Shown here: positions 17 through 36,869 of the stretch, one piece after another
Position numbering within the stretch: position 1 is the first letter of the stretch
Layout of the letters: every line of letters starts with the position of its first letter
From: a virus
IMG/VR virus record: IMGVR_UViG_3300045988_098643
Span: 1 to 36,918 of that record
DNA: 36,918 bases
Direction: 5' to 3' (one strand)
Translations under genes and position numbers: made by a program
Notes under the pieces: model-generated
The model's input: only the letters and a program-made list of their open reading frames with translations
Told to the model about the DNA's origin: nothing
The model's database searches: none

Positions 17-45
17 AGTATATCATAGTATTAATACTATGTCAA
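17..45 (-). promoter_or_regulatory. Sigma-A-type promoter with palindromic operator (copy B)
   Basis: Minus strand reads TTGACA (45..40), 17-nt spacer, TATACT (22..17). The spacer is filled by the perfect palindrome CATAGTATTAATACTATG (24..41). Near-identical to 35861..35889. If the contig is circular it sits upstream of the CDS starting at 36869. Confidence 0.6.
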
Positions 46-2464: not shown

Positions 2465-4564
2465 CTACTCCTTTTCAAAAATTAGCGTGTTTGGAGCTAT
2501 GCTTGATGTGCTTGCACCTTTTTCGATTATAGCTATGTTTTTAACGGTGTCACTGCCGACTTTTTTATCTATATGATTACTGAACATGAATCTTGCATAA
2601 GCCTCAACTCTTTCATCTAATTCATCTACAACATTTTTATCTGCTTTCTCATCAACATTAGCTTGTACATTAGCTAAATCATTATTCCTAGCCTTTTGTG
2701 CAAGTTCGTTTTGCAAACCCTTAACATCACTTATGCTGTGTGTGTGAGATTTATCTGCTTTTTTATCTAACGCTGTAGATACGCTTGAAATACTTCTTGA
2801 GTTATCATTTAATAAGTCTCTCATGGTGTCCATTAACGCTGCGCCCATGCCGATTTTTGAATCAAGGGAATTACAAGTCTTAGTAAATTCATTAACACTT
2901 TCATCAAAACTTTTCTTAGATATAGCCGTATTTTCTCCATCTACATCAATTTTAACAATCCCTGCCGTCTTGCTTGTCGCTGCTTCGACTTTAAAATTAT
3001 CAACTTTTTCTGTTAGTTCTGTAGATAGCTTATCAATATCCTCTTTACTAGCTTTTGTACTTAATACCGATTTTAAATCAGTAATATCATCTGTTGTGTG
3101 TGTATGTTCTTTATCTGCTTTATTTTCACGTACATTATTTAAATTATCTTCAAAATATTTGTATGTGTTTCCTACTTTAATCATTGTTTCATCATGCGTC
3201 TTTTTCGATACAGCCATACTTTCGCCGTCTACATCAATTCTGACAATCCCTGCGACTGTACTTGTCGCCGTTGGAATAACTCCTTGCATCGTTTTATCCC
3301 AACCCTCGAACTTTCCAGCTCTGTCGCTTTCAGCTTTTGCTCTTTGTTTTTCTGCTTCAACACGATCACTTTCTTGTTGTTGTCTTGTGTTCTCATTTGA
3401 TTGACGTGTTTGTTCAGCGTTTTGTCGTTCAGTCTCTTTTGATGTTCTAGTTTTTTCAGATTCTTCTCTTGTTGTCTCCGATGTCGCTCTTTTGCTTTCT
3501 GCGTCAGCTCTTTGTTGTTCTTGTTCTTGTCTAGTGCTTTCGTGACTTGTTCTTGTGTCTTCTGATTTCTTTCTTGTGTCTTCTTGTGACTGTCTAAGTT
3601 TTTCTGCTTCAACTCTTTGTTGTTCTTGCGTTTGTCTAGTAGCTTCGTTTTGTTGTCTCCGTTCTTCGTTTTTGCTGTATTTTGTATCATTTTCAGCACG
3701 TGCCTTTTCTGCACTTATTCTTTTGTTTTCATTCTCTATTCTGATTTTTTCTGCATTATCTCTTTTTGTTTCCTCAGAATTTCTACTTGTTTCTGCAGTT
3801 ATTCTTTTTTGTTCGTCTGACTTTCTTGTACTTTCGTCTGCTTGGCGTTGAGTTTCGTTTGATTCACGTGTGCTCTCTTTTTGTTGACGTGCAGTCTCAT
3901 TTGATTGTCGTGTACTTTCGTTTGATTGTCTAGTTTTTTCTTGTGATGCTCTTGTATTTTCAGCACTCACTCTTTTCTTTTCCGCTTCAACTCTTGCGTT
4001 TTCTGTACTCAGTACGTCTTTCAATCCGTCTCTGATTTGTACTACTTCTGTATGCTTTTCTGCGATTTTACTTTCTACTGCTTCTTGTCTGACTAGACTT
4101 TCTTCAAATTTTCTTGATTGTTCATCTGCTCTGTCTAGTGCATCTTGCAGTTTTCCAAAGTCTACAACAAGGTCTTTTCCTACATTTCCGCCGTTTGCGA
4201 TACTTCTATAAACATCAACTTCTTTGATACGTGATTGTATCAAAGCATTTTTGCCCTCAAAAAGTGCAAGTTGTAGTTGTAGTTTTCCAGACTTACTAGC
4301 CATATCTGTTGATATATACACTTTGTAGAAGTCACCGTCTATTGTGCCTTTTGTGAAAAAAGACTTGTCGGGATAATTTGAATTTATCCCATAAAGTCGC
4401 ATTTCGTAGTTGCTTGATGCTTTGATTATTTCTCCGTTATTTGTGCTTACAAGTACTTTAAATCCACGTGTTTTTGTATCTCCTTGGACAATTGTGATGT
4501 CTTGTAAGTCGTTGCTATCAAAGTCAAGCACTAAATCTTTTAGTCCTATTTCGTCAAATCTCAT
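2465..4564 (-). CDS. Tail fibre / baseplate upper protein (BppU-like N-terminus, long heptad coiled coil, duplicated distal modules)
   Basis: N-terminus has DITIVQGDTKTRGFKV, about 33 heptads of ExxRxxx follow, and the motifs AGIV(R/K)IDVDGE and KADK(E/S)HTH are each duplicated. Confidence 0.8.
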   Translation of the reverse strand: MRFDEIGLKDLVLDFDSNDLQDITIVQGDTKTRGFKVLVSTNNGEIIKASSNYEMRLYGINSNYPDKSFFTKGTIDGDFYKVYISTDMASKSGKLQLQLALFEGKNALIQSRIKEVDVYRSIANGGNVGKDLVVDFGKLQDALDRADEQSRKFEESLVRQEAVESKIAEKHTEVVQIRDGLKDVLSTENARVEAEKKRVSAENTRASQEKTRQSNESTRQSNETARQQKESTRESNETQRQADESTRKSDEQKRITAETSRNSEETKRDNAEKIRIENENKRISAEKARAENDTKYSKNEERRQQNEATRQTQEQQRVEAEKLRQSQEDTRKKSEDTRTSHESTRQEQEQQRADAESKRATSETTREESEKTRTSKETERQNAEQTRQSNENTRQQQESDRVEAEKQRAKAESDRAGKFEGWDKTMQGVIPTATSTVAGIVRIDVDGESMAVSKKTHDETMIKVGNTYKYFEDNLNNVRENKADKEHTHTTDDITDLKSVLSTKASKEDIDKLSTELTEKVDNFKVEAATSKTAGIVKIDVDGENTAISKKSFDESVNEFTKTCNSLDSKIGMGAALMDTMRDLLNDNSRSISSVSTALDKKADKSHTHSISDVKGLQNELAQKARNNDLANVQANVDEKADKNVVDELDERVEAYARFMFSNHIDKKVGSDTVKNIAIIEKGASTSSIAPNTLIFEKE

Positions 4565-8805: not shown

Positions 8806-11463
8806 CTATATCCTATACTCGCTCAGTCTAATTACTTCATCTTGCCTTTGTGTTATATCGTCCACAAACGCTTTAAATGTCTTGTCAAACATCTTGAATG
8901 TAATCTCAACAGGCTGTTTTGCCGTTGTGTCATTTTTCAATGTATGCGTGAAATTAGCATTACCTGACACATCGCCAAAACTACTGTTGAACTCACTAGA
9001 CGACTTATTAAACGTACTAATCATATCGCTTGCCATACTTTCAACTGCTTTTAATGGCTTTTTACTTGTGTCTTCAATACCTATCGCTGCTCCGAGCATC
9101 GTATTAATACCTATATCCTTAAAAACTCTAGATGGTGAGTGAATACCCAACAGCCTTTTAGCTCCGTTGATTGCATTACTTACAGCTCCAGTAACAGCTG
9201 ATATTAACCTATGAGCCGCACTTCTAACACCGTTTACAAAACCACTAATCAAGTTAGAACCAACAGACGCTGCACTTGAAATAAATCTTCTCGCACTATT
9301 TACAGCATTTTGGAACGCTTGACCTACAGTTCTTGGAAGCTGCGTAATTCTCGTTTTTACTGTACTCAACATATTTGATATAGCGTTTATTACATTGCTT
9401 TTCATTTCGTTAAACTTATTTACCGCCGATGTTTTCGCGTTTTGTACCGCATTTACAATAGTAGTTTTTATATTGTTAAAAATATTTGATGCAGTCGCTT
9501 TAATGCTATTCCAAATCTGCGACACATGACTTTTAAAAGTTTCCCATAACTGTTTGCCGATTTTTACGGCTATTTCAATTAGATTTTTAATAACTTGCTT
9601 TATACCTTCCCAAATTTGAGATGCAGCCTGCTTTATCTTCTCCCATATTTGTTTAAGAGAACTTTTAGCACCTTCCCAGTCTCCAGTTAATGTTTGTAAA
9701 AGAATCAGTATTGGTGTAATTATCACTATTTTAATCATTTCCCATACACCTTTTGCAATGCTTTTTATTCCGTCCCAAATTCCTTTTAAATTATCCTTAA
9801 CAGAATTCCACATATTCATAATCCATTCTTTGAATCCGTTCCAGACTTCTTTTACGCTATCCCATATATTAGTAGCACCTGATTTGATAGATTCCCACAA
9901 ATTTGAGAAGAACTCTTTCATTGTTTCCCATGCGTTTTTAACCCAATCAGTAAATGCCTGCCATTTATCTTTTACTGCTTCCCATAAGTTTGATGCCGTT
10001 TCTTTGATGGCTTGCCAAGTCGCCGAGAAAAACTCTTTTATGGCGTTCCAGATATTTATTACAGCATTTCTGAAATCTTCGTTTGTATTCCACAAATACA
10101 CAATTACACCGATAACCGCCGCAATTGCCACAACAACTAATCCCACTGGAGACGTTAAAAATCCGAACGCCTTACCTAATATTTCAAGTCCGCCTTTTAA
10201 ATTTCCGACAAATTCAAAAATGTCCGTTAAGTGCTTCAAGAATCCACCCAAAGCAAACACCACAGGACCAATCGCAGCCGCGAATATACCGATTTTCACA
10301 ATCATATCTTGTGTTGCAGGGTCTAGTTGATTAAACCAGTCTACCCATTCTTTTATTTTTTGAACAACGTCACGAATAAAAGGTCTCAACCTTTCCCCAA
10401 TCGCAATCGCCGCTCCTTCAACTGCCGATTTTAAAAGAACTAAGTCTCCATGTAAATTGTCATTCATAATCTTTGCCATCTCATCAGCAGACCCACTTGA
10501 ATTTTGTATAGCTGTAGTTAGTTTGTTGTAGTCTTCTTCACTTGCATTGATAATTCCAAGCATTCCACTCATCGCACGTTGCCCGAATATCATACTTGCG
10601 ATTTCTGCTTGTTGTGAGCCGTCTAGTCCTTGAAAACTATCTCTTAAAATATCTATAGTTTCATGCAGTGATTTTCCTTTAAAATCATCAGTACTTAACC
10701 CGATTAGTTCAAGCCCTTTGTTTACTTCTTTAGTTGGCTTTACTAACCTTGTGAACGCAGACCTTAATGATGTACCAGCTTGTGAACCTTTGATACCTGC
10801 ATTTGCCATTAATCCTACAGCAACTGCCGTGTCTTCGATTGAATATCCCAACGCACCTGCCACTGGAGCAGCGTATTTAAACGTTTCGCCCATCAATCCA
10901 ACATTGGTGTTTGAGTTAGTCGCAGCAGCAGCTAACACGTCACTAAATCTTGCAGCGTCCGTCGCTTTTAATCCAAACGCAGTTAATGAATCCGTTACGA
11001 TGTCTGATACAGTGCCCAAGTTTTCACCACTCGCAGCCGCTAAATTCATTATTGGTGGAAGTCCTGCAATCATTTGGTCAGTCTTCCAACCTGCCATACC
11101 CATGTATTTTAGTGCTTCTGCGGAATCTATTGCGGTGAATTTTGTAGTCGCACCCATTTTTTTAGCTATATCTTCAAGCCTTTTAAAATCTCCACCAGTA
11201 GCACCTGATATCGCCTTGACTTGACTCATCGCCGCTTCAAATTCTGATGCAGTCTTTACACTTTTAATCCCAACACCAACAAGTGGAGCAGTAACTCCCA
11301 ATGTCAACGCTTTTCCGATTCCTTGGAGTGATTCTCCCATCATCTGACTATTACTAACTGTTAAACCTTTTAATTTGTTTGTCTCGCCGTAAACTTGTTT
11401 CAGTGCGTTTTGGTACTTTGATATGTTTGCAGATATAACCGCAACAACGCTAAAACTATCCAT
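8806..11463 (-). CDS. Tape measure protein
   Basis: 885 aa with an internal TM segment and many W-x(10) periodic repeats ([28 protein letters not shown] and so on). Sits downstream of the G/T chaperones. Confidence 0.9.
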
Positions 11464-25434: not shown

Positions 25435-26172
25435 TTACTCCTCCTTGCATACCTCTACTGGTACTCCTAATTTCTTCTCTATACTATCTCTTATCAATTC
25501 CTCGTCGCTATTGCCATCACTAAGGTGTAATACATATACTCTCTTTAATCTCGTCATTTTAACGTCTTCTAGTGCCTCTAAAATAGTTTCCAAACTCATA
25601 TGATTTTTAACTATACGATTTCTCAGACTAACATTGATTTTTCCACACTCTACACGCTCATCTAAAGCTGACTTCACATAATTACATTCAATCATCAGGA
25701 CATCGCAGGCAGGTATTTTATATTTCATATATGCAGTATCCGTCACAAAGACAACGGATTCTTCTTTATCATATCTGCCATAAGTCCCGATATAATAACT
25801 GACGGGCTCTGATACGTCGTGGACGGCTTCGAAAGGTAAAACCATTATCCCATCGATTACTTCTGAATAATATCGTGCATTTTCAAACGGTCTAAAAGTT
25901 TTTAACCTATGACCACTAACTCCCAATGCTTCTGCCGTTCCTTTTGTCATATAACAGTCAACTCCTGCTTTCATCAAATCCTTAACTGCCTTGGCGTGAT
26001 CCATATGCTCATGCGTTACTAAGCAAAAATCTACATCAGACACTTTATAATTCAACGCTTTTTGTATCTTCTTAAAAGGTAGTCCGCATTCAAGTAATAT
26101 CTTCGTATTGTTTATATTGACCAGGTAGCAATTTCCGCTGCTACCTGAGCCAATCGTCTTAACATCTATCAT
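25435..26172 (-). CDS. Metallo-beta-lactamase-fold hydrolase/nuclease
   Basis: HxHxDH motif (THEHMDHAKA). Confidence 0.8.
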   Translation of the reverse strand: MIDVKTIGSGSSGNCYLVNINNTKILLECGLPFKKIQKALNYKVSDVDFCLVTHEHMDHAKAVKDLMKAGVDCYMTKGTAEALGVSGHRLKTFRPFENARYYSEVIDGIMVLPFEAVHDVSEPVSYYIGTYGRYDKEESVVFVTDTAYMKYKIPACDVLMIECNYVKSALDERVECGKINVSLRNRIVKNHMSLETILEALEDVKMTRLKRVYVLHLSDGNSDEELIRDSIEKKLGVPVEVCKEE

Positions 26173-32176: not shown

Positions 32177-33580
32177 ATGAATACAGACAAAAAACCATTT
32201 TATTATAACAGAATATTTTTGAACTTATTATTTATATTTGGTGGTCTAACTTTAATCCCACCATTCATAATTTTAGGAGTTCCAATTCTCGTATTGGCGT
32301 TTGTACTTAATAAAAAAGCAAACGCAAAATATCCACAATACTCAATCAAAAACATTGAAGAATTTGAAGAAAAAAACAAACTATTAGGTGATATTGAACA
32401 AATAAAAAAACAAAAAGAAAACACAGTTGAGGAAGCAAATAAGCTAAAAGAACAAACTGAAAAAGAGCACGAAGAACTAATAGAAAAAACTGAAAAAGAA
32501 TATGAACGCCTAAAAGAATCTAAAATAAAAGAAATCGAAGACTTAGAAAAAATTATAGATGATTATTCTAAAGAATTAACTGTTAAATACATTGATACTA
32601 GAGACTACAGCGATATTACATCTGCCCAGATAAAAAATGAAATTTCACTTGTTAATTTAAAAATCAAAGAATTAATAAAATCGGGAAAAGCTGTTAGAAT
32701 ATCCTACTCAGATTCTAATAAAAGAGATAACAACTTAACTAAACAAATACTTAAAAATTTCACATCTGACGCTAATATCATACTAAATAAACTAACACTA
32801 TCCAATGTAGACTCATCAAGAGCAAGAATAATCAAAGCCTTTGAATTAACGAATAAAATTTTTGCAGAAGATTATATACAAATAAAAAAAGAGTATTTAA
32901 ATTTAAAACTTGAAGAATTAAATCTTTACCATCAATATAATCTTAAATTAGAGCAAGAAAAAGAACAACAAAAAGCTATCAGAGAGCAAATGGTAGAAGA
33001 AGAAAAAGTTCGTAGAGAAATAGAAAGAGAAAAAAGAAAGATTGAAAAAGAAGAAATTCAATTTAGAAATGAACAAAATAAATTAATGTTATATTTAAAC
33101 AAAGCAAAAGACGATATCGAAAAGAAATTATATCTTGATAAAATCAAGGATTTGGAAGAAAAACTTAAACTACTTGAATCAGATAAAAAGAACGTATTTG
33201 ATAGAGAAGCAAATACTCGTGCAGGATTCGTGTATGTAATATCCAACATTGGCTCTTTCGGCGAAGACATCTACAAAATAGGAATGACAAGAAGACTAGA
33301 ACCAATGGATAGAATCAAAGAACTTGGCAGTGCTTCCGTTCCTTTTGAATTTGATGTCCATGCAATGATATTTTCAGACGATGCTCCAAGCTTAGAAACA
33401 ACCTTGCATCAAAAATTCAGGGATAGAGAAGTTAATAAAGTAAATCAACGCAAAGAATTCTTCAAAGTACCACTATCAGAAATAGAACAAGTAGTAAAAG
33501 AAAACTACAACGCCACTGTTGAATTTACAGAAATAGCTAAAGCAGAACAATACAGACAAACTTTAGCTATGACTAAATAA
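32177..33580 (+). CDS. Membrane-anchored coiled-coil protein with a DUF4041-like region and a C-terminal T5orf172/MUG113 (GIY-YIG superfamily) domain
   Basis: N-terminal TM (LLFIFGGLTLIPPFIILGVPILVLAFVL), a long K/E coiled coil, and a C-terminus GFVYVISN...YKIGMTRRLEPMDRIKELGSASVPFEFDVHAMIF...LHQKFRDREVNK...EFF. Confidence 0.75.
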   Translation: MNTDKKPFYYNRIFLNLLFIFGGLTLIPPFIILGVPILVLAFVLNKKANAKYPQYSIKNIEEFEEKNKLLGDIEQIKKQKENTVEEANKLKEQTEKEHEELIEKTEKEYERLKESKIKEIEDLEKIIDDYSKELTVKYIDTRDYSDITSAQIKNEISLVNLKIKELIKSGKAVRISYSDSNKRDNNLTKQILKNFTSDANIILNKLTLSNVDSSRARIIKAFELTNKIFAEDYIQIKKEYLNLKLEELNLYHQYNLKLEQEKEQQKAIREQMVEEEKVRREIEREKRKIEKEEIQFRNEQNKLMLYLNKAKDDIEKKLYLDKIKDLEEKLKLLESDKKNVFDREANTRAGFVYVISNIGSFGEDIYKIGMTRRLEPMDRIKELGSASVPFEFDVHAMIFSDDAPSLETTLHQKFRDREVNKVNQRKEFFKVPLSEIEQVVKENYNATVEFTEIAKAEQYRQTLAMTK

Positions 33581-34770: not shown

Positions 34771-34990
34771 ACTCGGTAAATACTCTGTAAATATTTTTAA
34801 AACGTTGAAATTATAAGGTTCGTAGGATACTCCTCATCTCCACCATATATTTTCAAATTAGCTCATTACAACTCAAAACGTTGATAAATGGGCTTTTTTA
34901 TTTTTTTAATGTCGGTATTTTTATCTAAATATCTCAAGTTTTTTCAAAATTTTTCGGTAAAACTTTCGGTAAGAATTTTTCTGCACTGAT
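34771..34990. other. Candidate attP region
   Basis: Lies directly downstream of int. Contains a tRNA/tmRNA 3'-end-like string GGTTCG...CATCTCCACCA (34818..34846), flanking direct repeats AAAACGTTGA (34799 and 34875), and (T)CGGTAA-type motifs at 34773, 34912, 34954 and 34966. Confidence 0.35.
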
Positions 34991-35114: not shown

Positions 35115-35142
35115 TTGACTTTTTAATTTATTACGATATAAT
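35115..35142 (+). promoter_or_regulatory. Sigma-A-type promoter (chassis copy 2)
   Basis: TTGACT-16 nt-TATAAT. 27 of 28 nt are identical to 36101..36128. Confidence 0.7.
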
Positions 35143-35148
35143 TAAATC

Positions 35149-35228
35149 ATCAAGCATAGTTTGAGTATGATGTAATCATATAGGTATTAGAAAGGCACTC
35201 ATTAAAGAGTGCTTTTTCTTTTTTCTTC
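35149..35228 (+). ncRNA. Small RNA (~80 nt) carrying a solitary 36-nt type II-A-like CRISPR repeat mimic (35159..35194)
   Basis: The consensus promoter lies 7 nt upstream of the predicted start. The intrinsic terminator is GCACTC-ATTAAA-GAGTGC plus a T-run (35195..35228). There is no ORF. The body GTTTGAGTATGATGTAATCATATAGGTATTAGAAAG resembles GTTTTAG-type II-A repeats. Confidence 0.45.
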
Positions 35229-35816
35229 TTCCAGTCTTTCTCTAATTTCTTTCATTTGTCTCCAGTCGTATGTTCCCTTTGCGTAAATTCTAGCATCAAC
35301 TCTATTTTTAAAACCTTCATATATTTCTAAAATTTGTTCATAATTAAAGTTATATAAATATAAATCTTTTATATCGTGTGATAAATACATATCTAAAATA
35401 TAAATTTCTTTTAAAGTATCGTGTTTTTCTTTTCCATCGTAGTCGTCTTCTAAATAAAGTAATACATTATTGATTTGAACTATAGTTTCATTATCGTATA
35501 GTTTTAAAATACATCTTCCAATTTTTTTCTTTAATTCTAAATCATTTTCTCTGTTTCTGTGGTAGCACATTTCAAATAACATTTCTGCAACGAAATCTTC
35601 GTCGAAATCTAATTCCCCATCGCATTCTTCATTTAACATATTCCAAACTGGAAGCGATAATAAATAACAATGAAAACATTCGATAGCAGCTATTATTTTT
35701 TCTTCATCTGTATTAATATCTTTATCTATATAGTTATAACTTTCAATATTTTGTTTTCCGTTCAACCATCTTGTGTTGTTTTTGATTTCTATACTTTCTA
35801 ATTTTAAATTCTTCAT
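35202..35816 (-). CDS. Acidic 205-aa hypothetical protein (candidate anti-defence protein)
   Basis: Starts MKNLKLESIE with ATG at 35816 after AAAAGGAGAAAAAAG. Driven by the palindrome-bearing promoter. No domain recognised by eye. Confidence 0.7.
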   Translation of the reverse strand: MKNLKLESIEIKNNTRWLNGKQNIESYNYIDKDINTDEEKIIAAIECFHCYLLSLPVWNMLNEECDGELDFDEDFVAEMLFEMCYHRNRENDLELKKKIGRCILKLYDNETIVQINNVLLYLEDDYDGKEKHDTLKEIYILDMYLSHDIKDLYLYNFNYEQILEIYEGFKNRVDARIYAKGTYDWRQMKEIRERLEEEKRKSTL

Positions 35817-35860
35817 CTTTTTTCTCCTTTTATTTTTTACATTTCCTTTACTGTAACTAT

Positions 35861-35889
35861 AGTATAACATAGTATTAATACTATGTCAA
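35861..35889 (-). promoter_or_regulatory. Sigma-A-type promoter with palindromic operator (copy A)
   Basis: Minus strand TTGACA (35889..35884), 17 nt, TATACT (35866..35861). The perfect 18-bp palindrome CATAGTATTAATACTATG lies at 35868..35885. Confidence 0.7.
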
Positions 35890-35892
35890 CCA

Positions 35893-36090
35893 TTATTTCA
35901 ATTTTTTTTCAATTAAATTTTTAAACTCAATTAATTCTTCTTTTGTCGCAAACTCTCTTATATATCGTCTACAGCTCGACCTCAAAGAACTAATTCTTTT
36001 TCTTTCTCGTGCCTCAGGATTATTTTTTAAATACCTTTTGTCTGCTTCTAATTGTTGCTCAATGTCTTTATAGCCTTTTCTTTTTGTCAT
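35893..36090 (-). CDS. Small basic 65-aa protein (candidate regulator of the duplicated promoters)
   Basis: Starts MTKRKGYKDIEQQ with ATG at 36090 after GGAGAAATGT. Helical and basic (RERKRISSLRSSCRRYIREF). The track ORF start at 36141 reads into the array promoter. Confidence 0.6.
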   Translation of the reverse strand: MTKRKGYKDIEQQLEADKRYLKNNPEARERKRISSLRSSCRRYIREFATKEELIEFKNLIEKKLK

Positions 36091-36100
36091 ACATTTCTCC

Positions 36101-36128
36101 TTGACTTTTTTATTTATTACGATATAAT
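36101..36128 (+). promoter_or_regulatory. Sigma-A-type promoter (chassis copy 1) of the mini-array
   Basis: TTGACT-16 nt-TATAAT. A mirrored ATTATA (36133..36138) forms a possible overlapping divergent -10 box. Confidence 0.7.
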
Positions 36129-36141
36129 ATAAATTATACAA

Positions 36142-36230
36142 ATAGTTCCCGCAAACGCGGGTGTGACCCTTTATAGTTAAGGGTAAGATCTAACGATCTC
36201 AATTAGTTCCTGCAAACGCAGGGAAGGAAG
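36142..36230 (+). CRISPR. Cas-less mini-CRISPR array: two type I-E-like 28-nt repeats flanking one 33-nt spacer
   Basis: R1 is ATAGTTCCCGCAAACGCGGGTGTGACCC (36142..36169). The spacer is TTTATAGTTAAGGGTAAGATCTAACGATCTCAA (36170..36202). R2 is TTAGTTCCTGCAAACGCAGGGAAGGAAG (36203..36230), with a compensatory stem change and a degenerate 3' end. Confidence 0.65.
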
Positions 36231-36258
36231 CTCTCTTTATGAGAGCTTTTCTTATTTT
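36227..36258 (+). terminator. Intrinsic terminator of the mini-array transcript
   Basis: GAAGCTCTC-TTTAT-GAGAGCTTT followed by TTTCTTATTTT. Overlaps the stop codon of the convergent CDS at 36252. Confidence 0.7.
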
Positions 36259-36869
36259 CTATATTTATTTACTACATTTATGTCAGTAGTTTCAAAAGTG
36301 TTGCCATCGACAGTTATATAATAAGTTGGTAGCTCATCATCATCGTATATAGGACCAGTAATACTTGCTTTATCATCATTTTCTAGGCACTTTTCGCTTT
36401 CTCTTATAGACTCTCTATCTTCAAGCATTTGTCTTCTCACAGCATTTATCACATTATCAAGTTCGTCTCTAGTAATATCAATTTTTTTATCTCTCCATCT
36501 TTGACATTCTTCTTGTTCCAGATCTAAAAAACCATGGTATAAATCTCCATATATGTTTTGAGGACTATTTTTTTCTTTAACTTTTTTGTATTTTTTTAAT
36601 AACTCTTGATAATAATCTTCGTTCCAAGCTCTTTGGCTTTCAATTTCTCTTTTAAAGTTGTTTATATAAATTTTTAATGATTTTTCAAGCGTATCGTGAT
36701 TATAAGAATCTTCTTCAAGAAATTTTGTAATCAAATCTCTATAATCTTTTTTTGTCATCTTTTCTACATTTCTGTTATACATTCCACAAATGTAACTAAA
36801 GTCTGTATTTGACTTCACTCTATACTCTTCGAATTCTTCCCATAATTCTTCTAAATTTTTATCTTTCAT
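36252..36869 (-). CDS. Acidic 205-aa hypothetical protein (candidate anti-defence protein)
   Basis: Starts MKDKNLEELWEEFEEY after AAAGGAGAAAAATT. Its 5' UTR and RBS are homologous to those of 35202..35816, but the proteins are unrelated by eye. Confidence 0.7.
   Translation of the reverse strand: MKDKNLEELWEEFEEYRVKSNTDFSYICGMYNRNVEKMTKKDYRDLITKFLEEDSYNHDTLEKSLKIYINNFKREIESQRAWNEDYYQELLKKYKKVKEKNSPQNIYGDLYHGFLDLEQEECQRWRDKKIDITRDELDNVINAVRRQMLEDRESIRESEKCLENDDKASITGPIYDDDELPTYYITVDGNTFETTDINVVNKYRK

What the first reader, a model, noticed from the sequence alone, without database searches (positions are those of the whole stretch)
35115..36147. One promoter/leader chassis reused with two different CRISPR-repeat payloads
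35115..35142 and 36101..36128 are 27/28 identical (TTGACTTTTTWATTTATTACGATATAAT). In both units the hexamer ATAGTT starts exactly 14 nt after the -10 box, at 35156 and 36142. Downstream the payloads are unrelated: one is I-E-like, the other II-A-like. Both end in a plus-strand terminator that abuts or overlaps the stop codon of a convergent protein gene. This modular arrangement suggests a family of phage RNA cassettes, each aimed at a different host CRISPR type.
Basis: seen in the sequence. Interest (0 to 1): 0.7.

Follow-up and report, generated by a model that had tools for sequence, protein, structure and literature searches.

The report
Phage RNA decoys against host CRISPR
A temperate phage of the human commensal Finegoldia magna carries two small RNA genes behind near-identical strong promoters: one copies the host's own CRISPR type I-E self-regulating RNA, the other a single type II-A CRISPR repeat. 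They are well-supported new examples of the recently described RNA anti-CRISPRs.

Summary
Two 28-nt consensus promoters (27/28 identical; none expected by chance) each drive a short non-coding unit that ends in a terminator touching the stop codon of a convergent gene.

The window is a complete, circularly permuted 36.9-kb temperate Finegoldia magna phage. Both units lie in the accessory island between the lysis genes and attP.

- **Unit 2 (36101-36256)** is a full-length homologue of a crRNA-like regulator (CreR-like) found just upstream of cas3 in a Finegoldia-type I-E locus. Its spacer-like part pairs with the cas3 leader at positions 1-16, except the flipped positions 6 and 12. That site is flanked by the AAC PAM I derived from natural protospacers. 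This matches a viral "Cracr".
- **Unit 1 (35115-35227)** is a single sense-strand copy of the F. magna II-A repeat (31/36). It pairs with the predicted tracrRNA, has no tracr tail and no detectable guide target. It is a solitary-repeat Racr candidate.

Related Finegoldia prophages use the same promoter for a third payload, I-B two-spacer mini-arrays. In 387 kb examined, all 47 promoter matches with six or fewer mismatches precede a repeat payload.

This is a new member of a known kind. No expression or functional data were available.

The parts
35115..35142 (+). Promoter copy 1 (TTGACT, 16 nt, TATAAT) driving the II-A unit
   Evidence: (family D4). The same promoter precedes II-A payloads in L011, L016, L017, L020, L023 and L026.
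35143..35158 (+). Short leader. The transcription start is inferred near 35147-35150. TCAAGC (35150-35155) can pair with the repeat start GTTTGA.
   Evidence: The MFE fold shows a 6-bp leader-repeat hairpin. In relatives the stem TCAAAC is kept while the loop varies from 3 to 7 nt. The start site is inferred, not measured.
35159..35192 (+). Solitary type II-A repeat-like element in crRNA-sense orientation. It matches the F. magna repeat GTTTGAGAATGATGTAATTTCATATAGGTATTAAAC at 31 of 36 positions: A8 to T, a 2-nt deletion, and two changes at the 3' end.
   Evidence: Alignment A2. Repeat sequence from PMC5762925 and the L029 array. Orientation from the L029 cas9-cas1-cas2-csn2-array order. Predicted duplex with the tracrRNA anti-repeat is -31.3 kcal/mol, against -39.0 for the canonical repeat and a mean of -9.7 for shuffles.
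35190..35227 (+). Intrinsic terminator of unit 1: hairpin 35190-35217 plus a T tract. It overlaps the stop codon of the convergent 204-aa gene.
36101..36128 (+). Promoter copy 2 driving the I-E unit. Its -35 box lies back-to-back with the ribosome-binding site of the 65-aa gene.
36142..36170 (+). First I-E repeat-like element (psiR1, 29 nt): ATAGTT, hairpin CCCGC-AAAC-GCGGG, then TGTGACCCT. The last 8 nt are the predicted 5' handle.
   Evidence: It aligns with psiR1 of the host CreR-like gene upstream of cas3 in L040.
36171..36202 (+). Spacer-like segment (psiS, 32 nt): TTATAGTTAAGGGTAAGATCTAACGATCTCAA. From the handle's last C, the first 16-18 nt are identical to the host CreR-like RNA (14-16 nt of psiS proper). 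Positions 1-16 are complementary to the cas3 leader except positions 6 and 12.
   Evidence: It is the best hit in the 13.8-kb locus, and 0 of 2000 shuffles reach it. The site is flanked by AAC, which is the PAM derived from natural protospacers. No protospacer was found in IMG/VR or in the held phage loci.
36203..36231 (+). Second I-E repeat-like element (psiR2). Its hairpin CCTGC-AAAC-GCAGG carries a compensatory C-G to U-A change. Its 3' part is degenerate and merges into the terminator.
   Evidence: pairs 57-66 and 119-128 change on both sides.
36226..36256 (+). Intrinsic terminator of unit 2, abutting the stop codon of the convergent 205-aa gene. It is homologous to the terminator of the host CreR-like gene.
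35202..35816 (-). 204-aa protein gene of unknown family, convergent with unit 1. Candidate protein anti-defence gene (inferred from context only).
   Evidence: No Pfam, PHROG, NCBIfam or PDB match. Homologues occur in Finegoldia genomes.
35893..36090 (-). 65-aa protein gene (phrog_2277, unknown function), the most conserved gene of these islands
   Evidence: The AlphaFold model is three helices with mean pLDDT 72 and has no significant PDB match.
36252..36869 (-). 205-aa protein gene of unknown family, convergent with unit 2
35861..35889 (-). Second shared promoter type, for the protein genes: TTGACA, 17 nt, TATACT, containing the palindrome CATAGTATTAATACTATG. This copy precedes the 204-aa gene.
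   Evidence: (D1, I7).
17..45 (-). Second copy of the palindrome-containing promoter. It precedes the 205-aa gene across the circular junction.
34830..34845 (.). attP core CTCCTCATCTCCACCA, identical to the 3' end of a host tRNA. In the lysogen the RNA island sits directly downstream of that tRNA.
   Evidence: Comparison of the circular form (window, L001) with the prophage junction in L003 (output). ARAGORN finds no complete tRNA in the window.

Best explanation
The two units are phage-encoded RNA anti-CRISPR genes. They sit in the accessory island of a temperate Finegoldia magna siphophage. Each has its own strong constitutive promoter and terminator, and each is directed at a different host CRISPR-Cas type.

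**Unit 2 (I-E)** is a stolen copy of the host's crRNA-like cas autoregulator (a CreR-type RNA). The inferred steps are as follows. Cas6e cuts at the two hairpins. The result is a crRNA-like RNA with an 8-nt handle, a 32-nt spacer-like segment and a 3' hairpin. This RNA loads into Cascade. It pairs over only 16 PAM-proximal nucleotides with a site about +10 to +28 in the cas3 leader, next to an AAC PAM. Cascade therefore binds but cannot complete the R-loop or recruit Cas3. It blocks transcription of the cas3-cse1-...-cas2 operon and also competes with immune crRNAs for Cas proteins. This is the published Cracr mechanism.

**Unit 1 (II-A)** is a solitary repeat. It most likely base-pairs with the host tracrRNA and loads Cas9 with an RNA whose roughly 10-nt leader is too short to guide cleavage. 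That would titrate tracrRNA and Cas9 away from real crRNAs, as a Racr-type decoy does.

**What is shown:** sequence homology, predicted structure, complementarity, PAM, genomic context and family distribution.
**What is inferred:** transcription, processing, and any effect on immunity.
For: **Host and context**
- Cluster members of the island and phage proteins are annotated Finegoldia.
- The contig is circular and complete: same-order contigs of 36.9 kb, and a 22-nt terminal overlap.
- The island lies between holin/lysin and attP/integrase.

**Unit 2**
- L040 holds a complete I-E operon, confirmed by Pfam. Its repeat core matches the F. magna 09T408 repeat exactly.
- Directly upstream of cas3, L040 carries promoter, psiR1, psiS, psiR2 and terminator. 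The phage unit aligns to this element end to end, including the terminator.
- There are 16-18 identical nucleotides from the handle's last C into the spacer-like segment.
- The phage segment pairs with the cas3 leader at positions 1-5, 7-11 and 13-16. This is the best hit in the whole locus, and 0 of 2000 shuffles reach it.
- The site is flanked by AAC. The same PAM flanks three independent natural protospacers in this phage.
- Both Cas6e-type hairpins are kept through compensatory changes.

**Unit 1**
- Identity to the host repeat is 31/36, in crRNA sense.
- The predicted duplex with the tracrRNA anti-repeat is strong.
- There is no tracr tail.
- Seven variants are conserved across elements.

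**Family**
- All 47 promoter matches with six or fewer mismatches precede II-A, I-E or I-B payloads.

**Arms race**
- Finegoldia II-A and I-E spacers match this phage at or near full length, and an I-B spacer matches it partially. II-A spacers also hit island genes of related prophages.

**Literature**
- Racr: PMC10651486.
- CreR and Cracr: bioRxiv 10.1101/2024.10.29.618823.
- vscaRNA: bioRxiv 10.64898/2026.06.01.729453.
Against: - No expression, processing or functional data exist for any of these RNAs.
- L040 is a metagenomic contig. I assign it to Finegoldia only because its repeat core matches the F. magna 09T408 repeat. The cas3 leader of this phage's actual host was not seen.
- The spacer-like segment of unit 2 has the canonical 32-nt length. 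The Salmonella I-E Cracrs described had shortened ones (21-24 nt).
- The divergent I-E cassette in L017 matches the L040 leader only partly: 9 of its first 10 nt at a site 14 nt upstream.
- For unit 1, decoy action on type II has not been demonstrated for a bare repeat. In the published test, the one native vscaRNA tested did not repress unless its guide was lengthened.
- The leader-repeat hairpin could hinder tracrRNA pairing.
- One strain, from a clade in which the II-A repeat was not reported, carries a II-A cassette.
Confidence: 0.75

Rival explanations
1. Unit 1 is not a passive decoy but a viral scaRNA. Its short leader would act as a truncated guide. Together with host tracrRNA it would send Cas9 to bind, without cutting, the cas9 promoter or another promoter and repress it.
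For: The architecture matches the vscaRNAs described in bioRxiv 10.64898/2026.06.01.729453: a short 5' segment followed by a repeat, phage-borne, next to small unknown genes. The inferred leader length of about 10-14 nt is in the range that allows binding without cleavage. By analogy, unit 2 does copy a host regulator.
Against: - The five leader variants show no match beyond 5-7 PAM-proximal nucleotides in about 1 kb around the cas9 start, which includes both the cas9 and the tracrRNA promoter regions, of a Finegoldia II-A locus. Nothing better appears elsewhere in the II-A loci.
- No host scaRNA-like partial repeat was found in the II-A locus fragments.
- The part of the leader next to the repeat, where the seed would lie, is the most variable part among variants (ATA, AATA, ACATA, TTAAAAA). 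The conserved part is shared with the I-E cassettes and so belongs to the promoter chassis.
- The single 11-nt match in the phage itself, at 2508, lacks the NAA-type PAM.
Confidence: 0.15
2. The units are virus-borne mini-CRISPR arrays. They would borrow host Cas proteins to cleave competing phages or plasmids, giving superinfection exclusion.
For: Unit 2 has repeat, a 32-nt spacer and repeat with the canonical 61-nt period. It is oriented like the lysogeny genes, so it could be expressed from the prophage. Viral mini-arrays of this kind are known (reviewed in PMC11656645; listed, not read).
Against: - There is no protospacer for the unit 2 spacer in IMG/VR, even allowing every sixth base to vary, nor in any held phage locus.
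- The 'spacer' is instead shared with a host regulatory RNA and matches the cas3 leader only partially.
- It is conserved across elements rather than variable.
- Unit 1 has no spacer of usable length.
Confidence: 0.05
3. The similarity is incidental. On this view these are generic strong promoters plus bidirectional terminators, or cis-antisense regulators of the convergent genes. The repeat-like sequences would be decaying relics with no role in CRISPR.
For: A relaxed version of the promoter precedes ordinary protein genes in one IMG/VR phage contig (L047/L048). The terminators also serve the convergent protein genes. Rfam has no match.
Against: - The association of the 28-mer with repeat payloads is perfect: 47 of 47.
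- The payloads are conserved over many independent contigs, and their hairpins are kept by compensatory changes.
- The three payload types correspond exactly to the three CRISPR types reported in Finegoldia.
- The match to the cas3 leader carries the correct PAM.
- Overlap with the convergent genes is limited to the terminator.
Confidence: 0.05

Closest known systems
Cracr RNAs: viral crRNA-like RNAs that repress cas or creT promoters (Liu et al., bioRxiv 10.1101/2024.10.29.618823), and their cellular models, the CreR RNAs
   Same: Unit 2 is phage-borne and lies outside any cas locus. It has the psiR-psiS-psiR layout. It shares its PAM-proximal spacer-like sequence with a host crRNA-like gene upstream of cas3. 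It is only partially complementary to the cas leader, next to a functional PAM. The published screening criterion of at least 9 shared PAM-proximal bases is exceeded.
   Different: - The spacer-like segment has the canonical 32-nt length, not a shortened one, and its distal half is a stable hairpin.
- There is a single spacer-like segment with its own promoter and terminator.
- The unit is combined in one island with RNA units against other CRISPR types. The paper reports that arrayed Cracrs always target variants of one type.
- Finegoldia is not mentioned in that paper's main text.
- Function was not tested here.
Racrs / solitary repeat units (Camara-Wilpert et al. 2023, PMC10651486)
   Same: Unit 1 is a single repeat mimic in a phage intergenic region. 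It lies immediately downstream of a strong promoter, matches the CRISPR subtype of its host, and sits among small unknown genes.
   Different: The validated Racrs act on type I and type V-A systems by forming aberrant Cas subcomplexes. A type II repeat must act through tracrRNA, which has not been shown. Finegoldia is absent from that paper and from its held supplements.
Viral scaRNAs, viral sgRNAs and rAcrIIA1 (bioRxiv 10.64898/2026.06.01.729453 and 10.64898/2026.06.03.729762)
   Same: These are phage RNAs that subvert Cas9 by mimicking its RNA partners. The vscaRNA layout is a short 5' segment plus a repeat.
   Different: Unit 1 lacks the tracrRNA tail, so it is not an sgRNA mimic. Its leader shows no match to the cas9 promoter or to a host scaRNA.
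Virus-borne mini-CRISPR arrays for inter-viral conflict (from my own knowledge of Medvedeva et al. 2019 and Faure et al. 2019)
   Same: Repeat-spacer-repeat units without cas genes in a viral genome.
   Different: The spacer has no viral target. It matches a host regulatory RNA and the cas3 leader instead.

Membership tests
Cracr (viral crRNA-like cas repressor) | Encoded on a virus or plasmid, outside a CRISPR-cas locus | tested here: met
   Complete temperate phage genome with no cas genes.
Cracr (viral crRNA-like cas repressor) | Homology to a host CreR/CreA RNA, including at least 9 PAM-proximal nucleotides of the spacer-like part | tested here: met
   A 16-18 nt exact match that starts at the handle's last C (14-16 nt of psiS proper), and an end-to-end alignment with the element upstream of cas3 in L040.
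Cracr (viral crRNA-like cas repressor) | Partial complementarity to a cas (or creT) promoter or leader, next to a PAM | tested here: met
   Positions 1-16 pair except 6 and 12. The flank is AAC. 0 of 2000 shuffles reach this. The AAC PAM was derived from three natural protospacers. The locus is a metagenomic Finegoldia-type I-E locus, not the phage's proven host.
Cracr (viral crRNA-like cas repressor) | Cas-dependent processing, repression of cas transcription, and relief of interference | not testable with these tools
   Needs sRNA-seq, RT-qPCR and plaque assays.
Racr / solitary repeat unit | A single repeat-like sequence similar to a known CRISPR repeat, not next to other repeats or cas genes, in an intergenic region of a mobile element | tested here: met
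   Unit 1 is 31/36 identical to the F. magna II-A repeat and is the only such copy in the window.
Racr / solitary repeat unit | A promoter immediately upstream, and a host that carries the matching subtype | tested here: met
   The consensus promoter lies 16 nt upstream. Finegoldia has II-A loci with this repeat.
Racr / solitary repeat unit | Sequesters Cas components and inhibits interference | not testable with these tools
   Only the predicted duplex with tracrRNA is available: -31.3 kcal/mol.
Viral scaRNA | A truncated guide identical to a host scaRNA or tracr-L guide and matching the cas9 promoter | tested here: not met
   No more than 7 PAM-proximal matches around cas9. No host scaRNA-like element in the II-A locus fragments. 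Essentially one cas9-upstream sequence was available (L033, with L029 near-identical).
Viral sgRNA / rAcrIIA1 | Fused repeat, anti-repeat and tracrRNA tail | tested here: not met
   After the repeat only a terminator follows. There is no similarity to the predicted tracrRNA tail.
Viral mini-CRISPR array (inter-element conflict) | A spacer matching another virus or plasmid | tested here: not met
   No hit in IMG/VR or in the held phage loci.

The most novel reading that the evidence does not exclude
Finegoldia mobile elements may maintain a plug-and-play RNA anti-CRISPR toolkit. One strong promoter and terminator chassis would receive RNAs taken from each of the host's three CRISPR types: the I-E cas regulator, I-B crRNA-like units and the II-A repeat. 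These would be shuffled as independent cassettes. The II-A unit would be a guide-less tracrRNA/Cas9 sponge whose leader-repeat hairpin and altered bulge make dead complexes. That would be a type II Racr mechanism, which has not yet been demonstrated experimentally.
Probability: 0.35. Interest if true: 0.6.

Novelty: new member of a known kind. Interest (0 to 1): 0.45.

Why it matters
RNA anti-CRISPRs were described only between 2023 and 2026, mostly in Proteobacteria and streptococci. This locus adds a natural case in an understudied Gram-positive anaerobic coccus that is an opportunistic pathogen.

- One phage family counters three co-resident CRISPR types using separately transcribed RNA cassettes built on one promoter.
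- The analysis points to a previously unreported crRNA-like element upstream of cas3 in a Finegoldia-type I-E locus. It also gives its likely operator in the cas3 leader and an AAC PAM. All three can be tested directly.
- The II-A solitary repeat is a compact candidate for asking whether a bare repeat can inhibit Cas9 through tracrRNA.
- The shared promoter is a practical search handle for further anti-defence RNAs, and for the unknown small proteins around them, which are candidate protein anti-CRISPRs.

Tried and rejected
- **Rfam:** no match at gathering score or at E up to 10.
- **Known phages:** no nucleotide match. A lysin tblastn gave only distant hits.
- **Exact 28-mer:** absent from IMG/VR and from the GTDB species representatives.
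- **Unit 2 spacer:** absent from IMG/VR.
- **Wrong register:** my first scan for the CreR target used a register 2 nt off and missed the site. It was corrected.
- **Leader of unit 1 as a Cas9 guide:** no target near cas9. The single 11-nt hit in the phage, at 2508, lacks the PAM.
- **Host scaRNA-like element in the II-A loci:** none found.
- **Island proteins:** no Pfam, PHROG (apart from the unknown-function phrog_2277), NCBIfam or PDB sequence hits.
- **65-aa protein:** the AlphaFold model, three helices with pLDDT 72, gave no significant Foldseek hit in the PDB. The idea that it is an Aca-type regulator remains untested.
- **Search with the 204-aa protein in IMG/VR:** it found only distant partial matches in one contig.
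- **Host I-B locus:** I could not retrieve one.
Full report
**1. The observation**

The two strings at 35115-35142 and 36101-36128 are 27/28 identical. Each is a near-consensus sigma-70 promoter: TTGACT, 16 nt, TATAAT. With up to three mismatches they are the only matches in the window, and 100 shuffles gave none.

Each is followed by a short structured region and a plus-strand intrinsic terminator. The scan found 6 terminator-like sites in the region against 0.5 expected. The first terminator overlaps the stop codon of the minus-strand 204-aa gene (35202-35816). The second abuts the stop codon of the 205-aa gene (36252-36869).

ATAGTT does start 14 nt after each -10 box. Relatives show this to be a coincidence, because the distance from the -10 box to the repeat varies.

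**2. What the window is**

- Contigs of 36.9 kb with the same genes in the same circular order, plus a 22-nt terminal overlap, show a complete, circularly permuted phage genome.
- It encodes a CI-like repressor, a tyrosine integrase, siphovirus structural genes, an amidase and a holin.
- Exact and near-exact copies of its proteins are annotated Finegoldia magna or Finegoldia sp. One 'C. difficile' assembly is the exception and is probably contaminated.
- The units lie between the lysis genes and attP. The attP core CTCCTCATCTCCACCA (34830-34845) equals a tRNA 3' end at the prophage junction in L003 (output).

**3. Host CRISPR types**

Brüggemann et al. (PMC5762925, Table S2) list three repeat types in Finegoldia:

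| Type | Repeat |
|---|---|
| II-A | GTTTGAGAATGATGTAATTTCATATAGGTATTAAAC |
| I-E | GTTATACCCGCACACGCGGGGATGATCCT (61-nt period) |
| I-B | ATTAAAATCTA.CCA...TGGAATGTAAAT |

I fetched a II-A locus, L029, with the order cas9-cas1-cas2-csn2-array. I also fetched a complete I-E locus, L040, with cas3-cse1-cse2-cas7-cas5-cas6e-cas1-cas2 and the array.

Published and metagenomic Finegoldia spacers match this phage:

| Spacer type | Position in window | Note |
|---|---|---|
| II-A | 34818-34847 | 29/30 |
| I-E | 424-454 | |
| I-E | 886-914, 3825-3856, 4088-4119 | all with a 5' AAC PAM |
| I-B | 35980-36002 | partial, 23 nt |

II-A spacers also hit island genes of related prophages.

**4. Unit 2 (36101-36256)**

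Its layout is psiR1 (36142-36170), a 32-nt spacer-like segment (36171-36202), psiR2 (36203-36231) and a terminator. Both repeat-like elements keep a Cas6e-type hairpin. psiR2 carries a compensatory C-G to U-A change.

The decisive result comes from L040. Immediately upstream of cas3, L040 carries a small gene with the same layout. The phage unit aligns to it from psiR1 through the terminator. There are 16-18 identical nucleotides running from the handle's last C into the spacer-like segment. This position and layout are those of the Cas-regulating CreR RNAs.

In the correct register, the phage segment pairs with a site on the antisense strand of the cas3 leader: AAC|TTATAATTAAGTGTAA.

- The site lies about +10 to +28 from a TTGACA, 17 nt, TAAATT promoter.
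- Positions 1-16 all pair except 6 and 12. From established knowledge of type I-E Cascade, these are the positions flipped out and not read.
- It is the best hit in the 13.8-kb locus, and none of 2000 shuffles reaches it.
- The flanking AAC equals the PAM I derived independently from natural protospacers.
- Pairing stops after position 16, which fits binding without Cas3 cleavage.

This satisfies the published sequence criteria for a Cracr.

**5. Unit 1 (35115-35227)**

- Positions 35159-35192 match the II-A repeat at 31 of 36 positions. The orientation is the sense of the array, which lies downstream of csn2 on the cas strand.
- Upstream of cas9, on the opposite strand, lies a predicted tracrRNA with promoter, anti-repeat, tail and terminator.
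- The unit's repeat forms a -31.3 kcal/mol duplex with that anti-repeat. The canonical repeat gives -39.0 and shuffles average -9.7.
- The unit has no tracr tail, so it is not an sgRNA mimic.
- Its leader shows no convincing target around cas9 or in the phage. No host scaRNA-like element was found.
- The leader's conserved TCAAAC/TCAAGC can pair with the repeat start, and the loop varies among seven variants. The same bases occur in I-E cassettes, so this structure is uncertain.

I therefore read unit 1 as a solitary-repeat Racr candidate acting through tracrRNA. The vscaRNA reading is the main rival.

**6. The family**

I fetched contigs carrying relatives of the island proteins. They gave 19 distinct promoter-plus-payload strings.

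- In 387 kb, all 47 matches with six or fewer mismatches precede a payload: 17 II-A, 15 I-E, 15 I-B. None of the 59 matches with 7-9 mismatches does.
- The I-B payload is a two-spacer mini-array with three repeat-like elements and a terminator.
- Combinations differ between elements:

| Element | Payloads |
|---|---|
| L017 | all three types |
| L016 | two I-B plus II-A |
| L018, L019, L021 | I-B plus I-E |
| Window | I-E plus II-A |

- A relaxed promoter pattern found two more I-B cassettes in IMG/VR. It also found similar promoters before ordinary genes in one unrelated 60.7-kb phage contig. The promoter skeleton is thus generic, and only the close 28-mer is specific to the cassettes.

**7. 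Comparison with what is known, and novelty**

Racrs (2023), Cracrs (preprint first posted 2024; the 2026 version was read), viral sgRNAs and scaRNAs (2026) and rAcrIIA1 (2026) already define this biology. None of the texts I searched mentions Finegoldia.

- Unit 2 is a new member of the Cracr kind.
- Unit 1 is a new solitary-repeat candidate for type II-A, a class without functional proof.
- The organisational point appears not to have been described: independent cassettes against three CRISPR types built on one promoter. The Cracr paper notes that arrayed Cracrs target variants of a single type.

**8. Verdict**

This is a new member of a known kind, of moderate interest. All functional steps remain inferred.

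Noticed in passing
window 35861-35889 (-) and 17-45 (-); also L016-L025: A second shared promoter type precedes the protein genes of these islands. It is TTGACA, 17 nt, TATACT, and it encloses the perfect palindrome CATAGTATTAATACTATG. It is followed by a conserved leader TATAGTTACAGTAAAGG. The layout resembles an operator-controlled acr-type promoter. The regulator is unknown.
   Followed up: partly
L040 about 10095-10215 (-): A metagenomic Finegoldia-type I-E locus carries a crRNA-like mini-array (CreR-like) between an HTH gene and cas3. It has its own promoter and terminator. Its spacer-like segment pairs with the cas3 leader over 12 effective positions next to an AAC PAM.
   Followed up: yes
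window 34818-34847, 424-454, 886-914, 3825-3856, 4088-4119, 35980-36002: Natural Finegoldia spacers of types II-A, I-E and I-B match this phage. The I-B match lies inside the 65-aa island gene. The I-E protospacers share a 5' AAC PAM. II-A protospacers in related loci suggest a 3' NAA-type PAM.
   Followed up: partly
window 34830-34845; L003 near 10960: The attP core CTCCTCATCTCCACCA equals the 3' end of a host tRNA. In the lysogen the RNA island lies directly downstream of that tRNA, and the integrase lies at the far end of the prophage.
   Followed up: partly
window 32177-33580 (+): A 467-aa gene between the repressor and the integrase has DUF4041 (SNIPE) and T5orf172/MUG113 domains. This is a candidate prophage-encoded defence nuclease.
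   Followed up: no
window 25435-26172 (-): A 245-aa metallo-beta-lactamase-fold protein next to RecT has a weak precomputed hit to the Anti-Pycsar Apyc1 family. It could be a cyclic-nucleotide-degrading anti-defence gene.
   Followed up: no
L032 2634-2987 (F. magna DSM 20470): One complete and one truncated II-A repeat lie about 290 nt apart with no cas genes nearby. The truncated copy runs into a hairpin that resembles part of the tracrRNA region. It looks like the scar of a deleted II-A locus.
   Followed up: no
PMC5762925 Table S2, F. magna ATCC 29328 'arrays' (28-nt and 25-nt repeats): Three short 'arrays' have heterogeneous I-E-like repeats with varying loops and stems. They resemble multi-unit crRNA-like (Cracr or CreR) arrays more than true CRISPR arrays. 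The sequence could not be fetched.
   Followed up: no
L047/L048 (IMGVR_UViG_3300032038_000093): A 60.7-kb phage contig uses three or four promoters very like the chassis (TTGACTTTTTTATTTTAGGGTATATAAT TAAAT) in front of ordinary protein genes. This suggests a common strong promoter form in AT-rich Firmicute phages.
   Followed up: no
L027 (Helcococcus sueciensis DSM 17243): A different genus carries a II-A array with the same 36-nt repeat as F. magna. The II-A cassette could therefore be effective beyond Finegoldia.
   Followed up: no
window 2498-2508 (-): An 11-nt exact match to the leader of unit 1 (CATCAAGCATA) lies inside the 699-aa tail gene. About 0.02 such matches are expected by chance. 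It lacks the inferred Cas9 PAM and is probably a chance match.
   Followed up: partly
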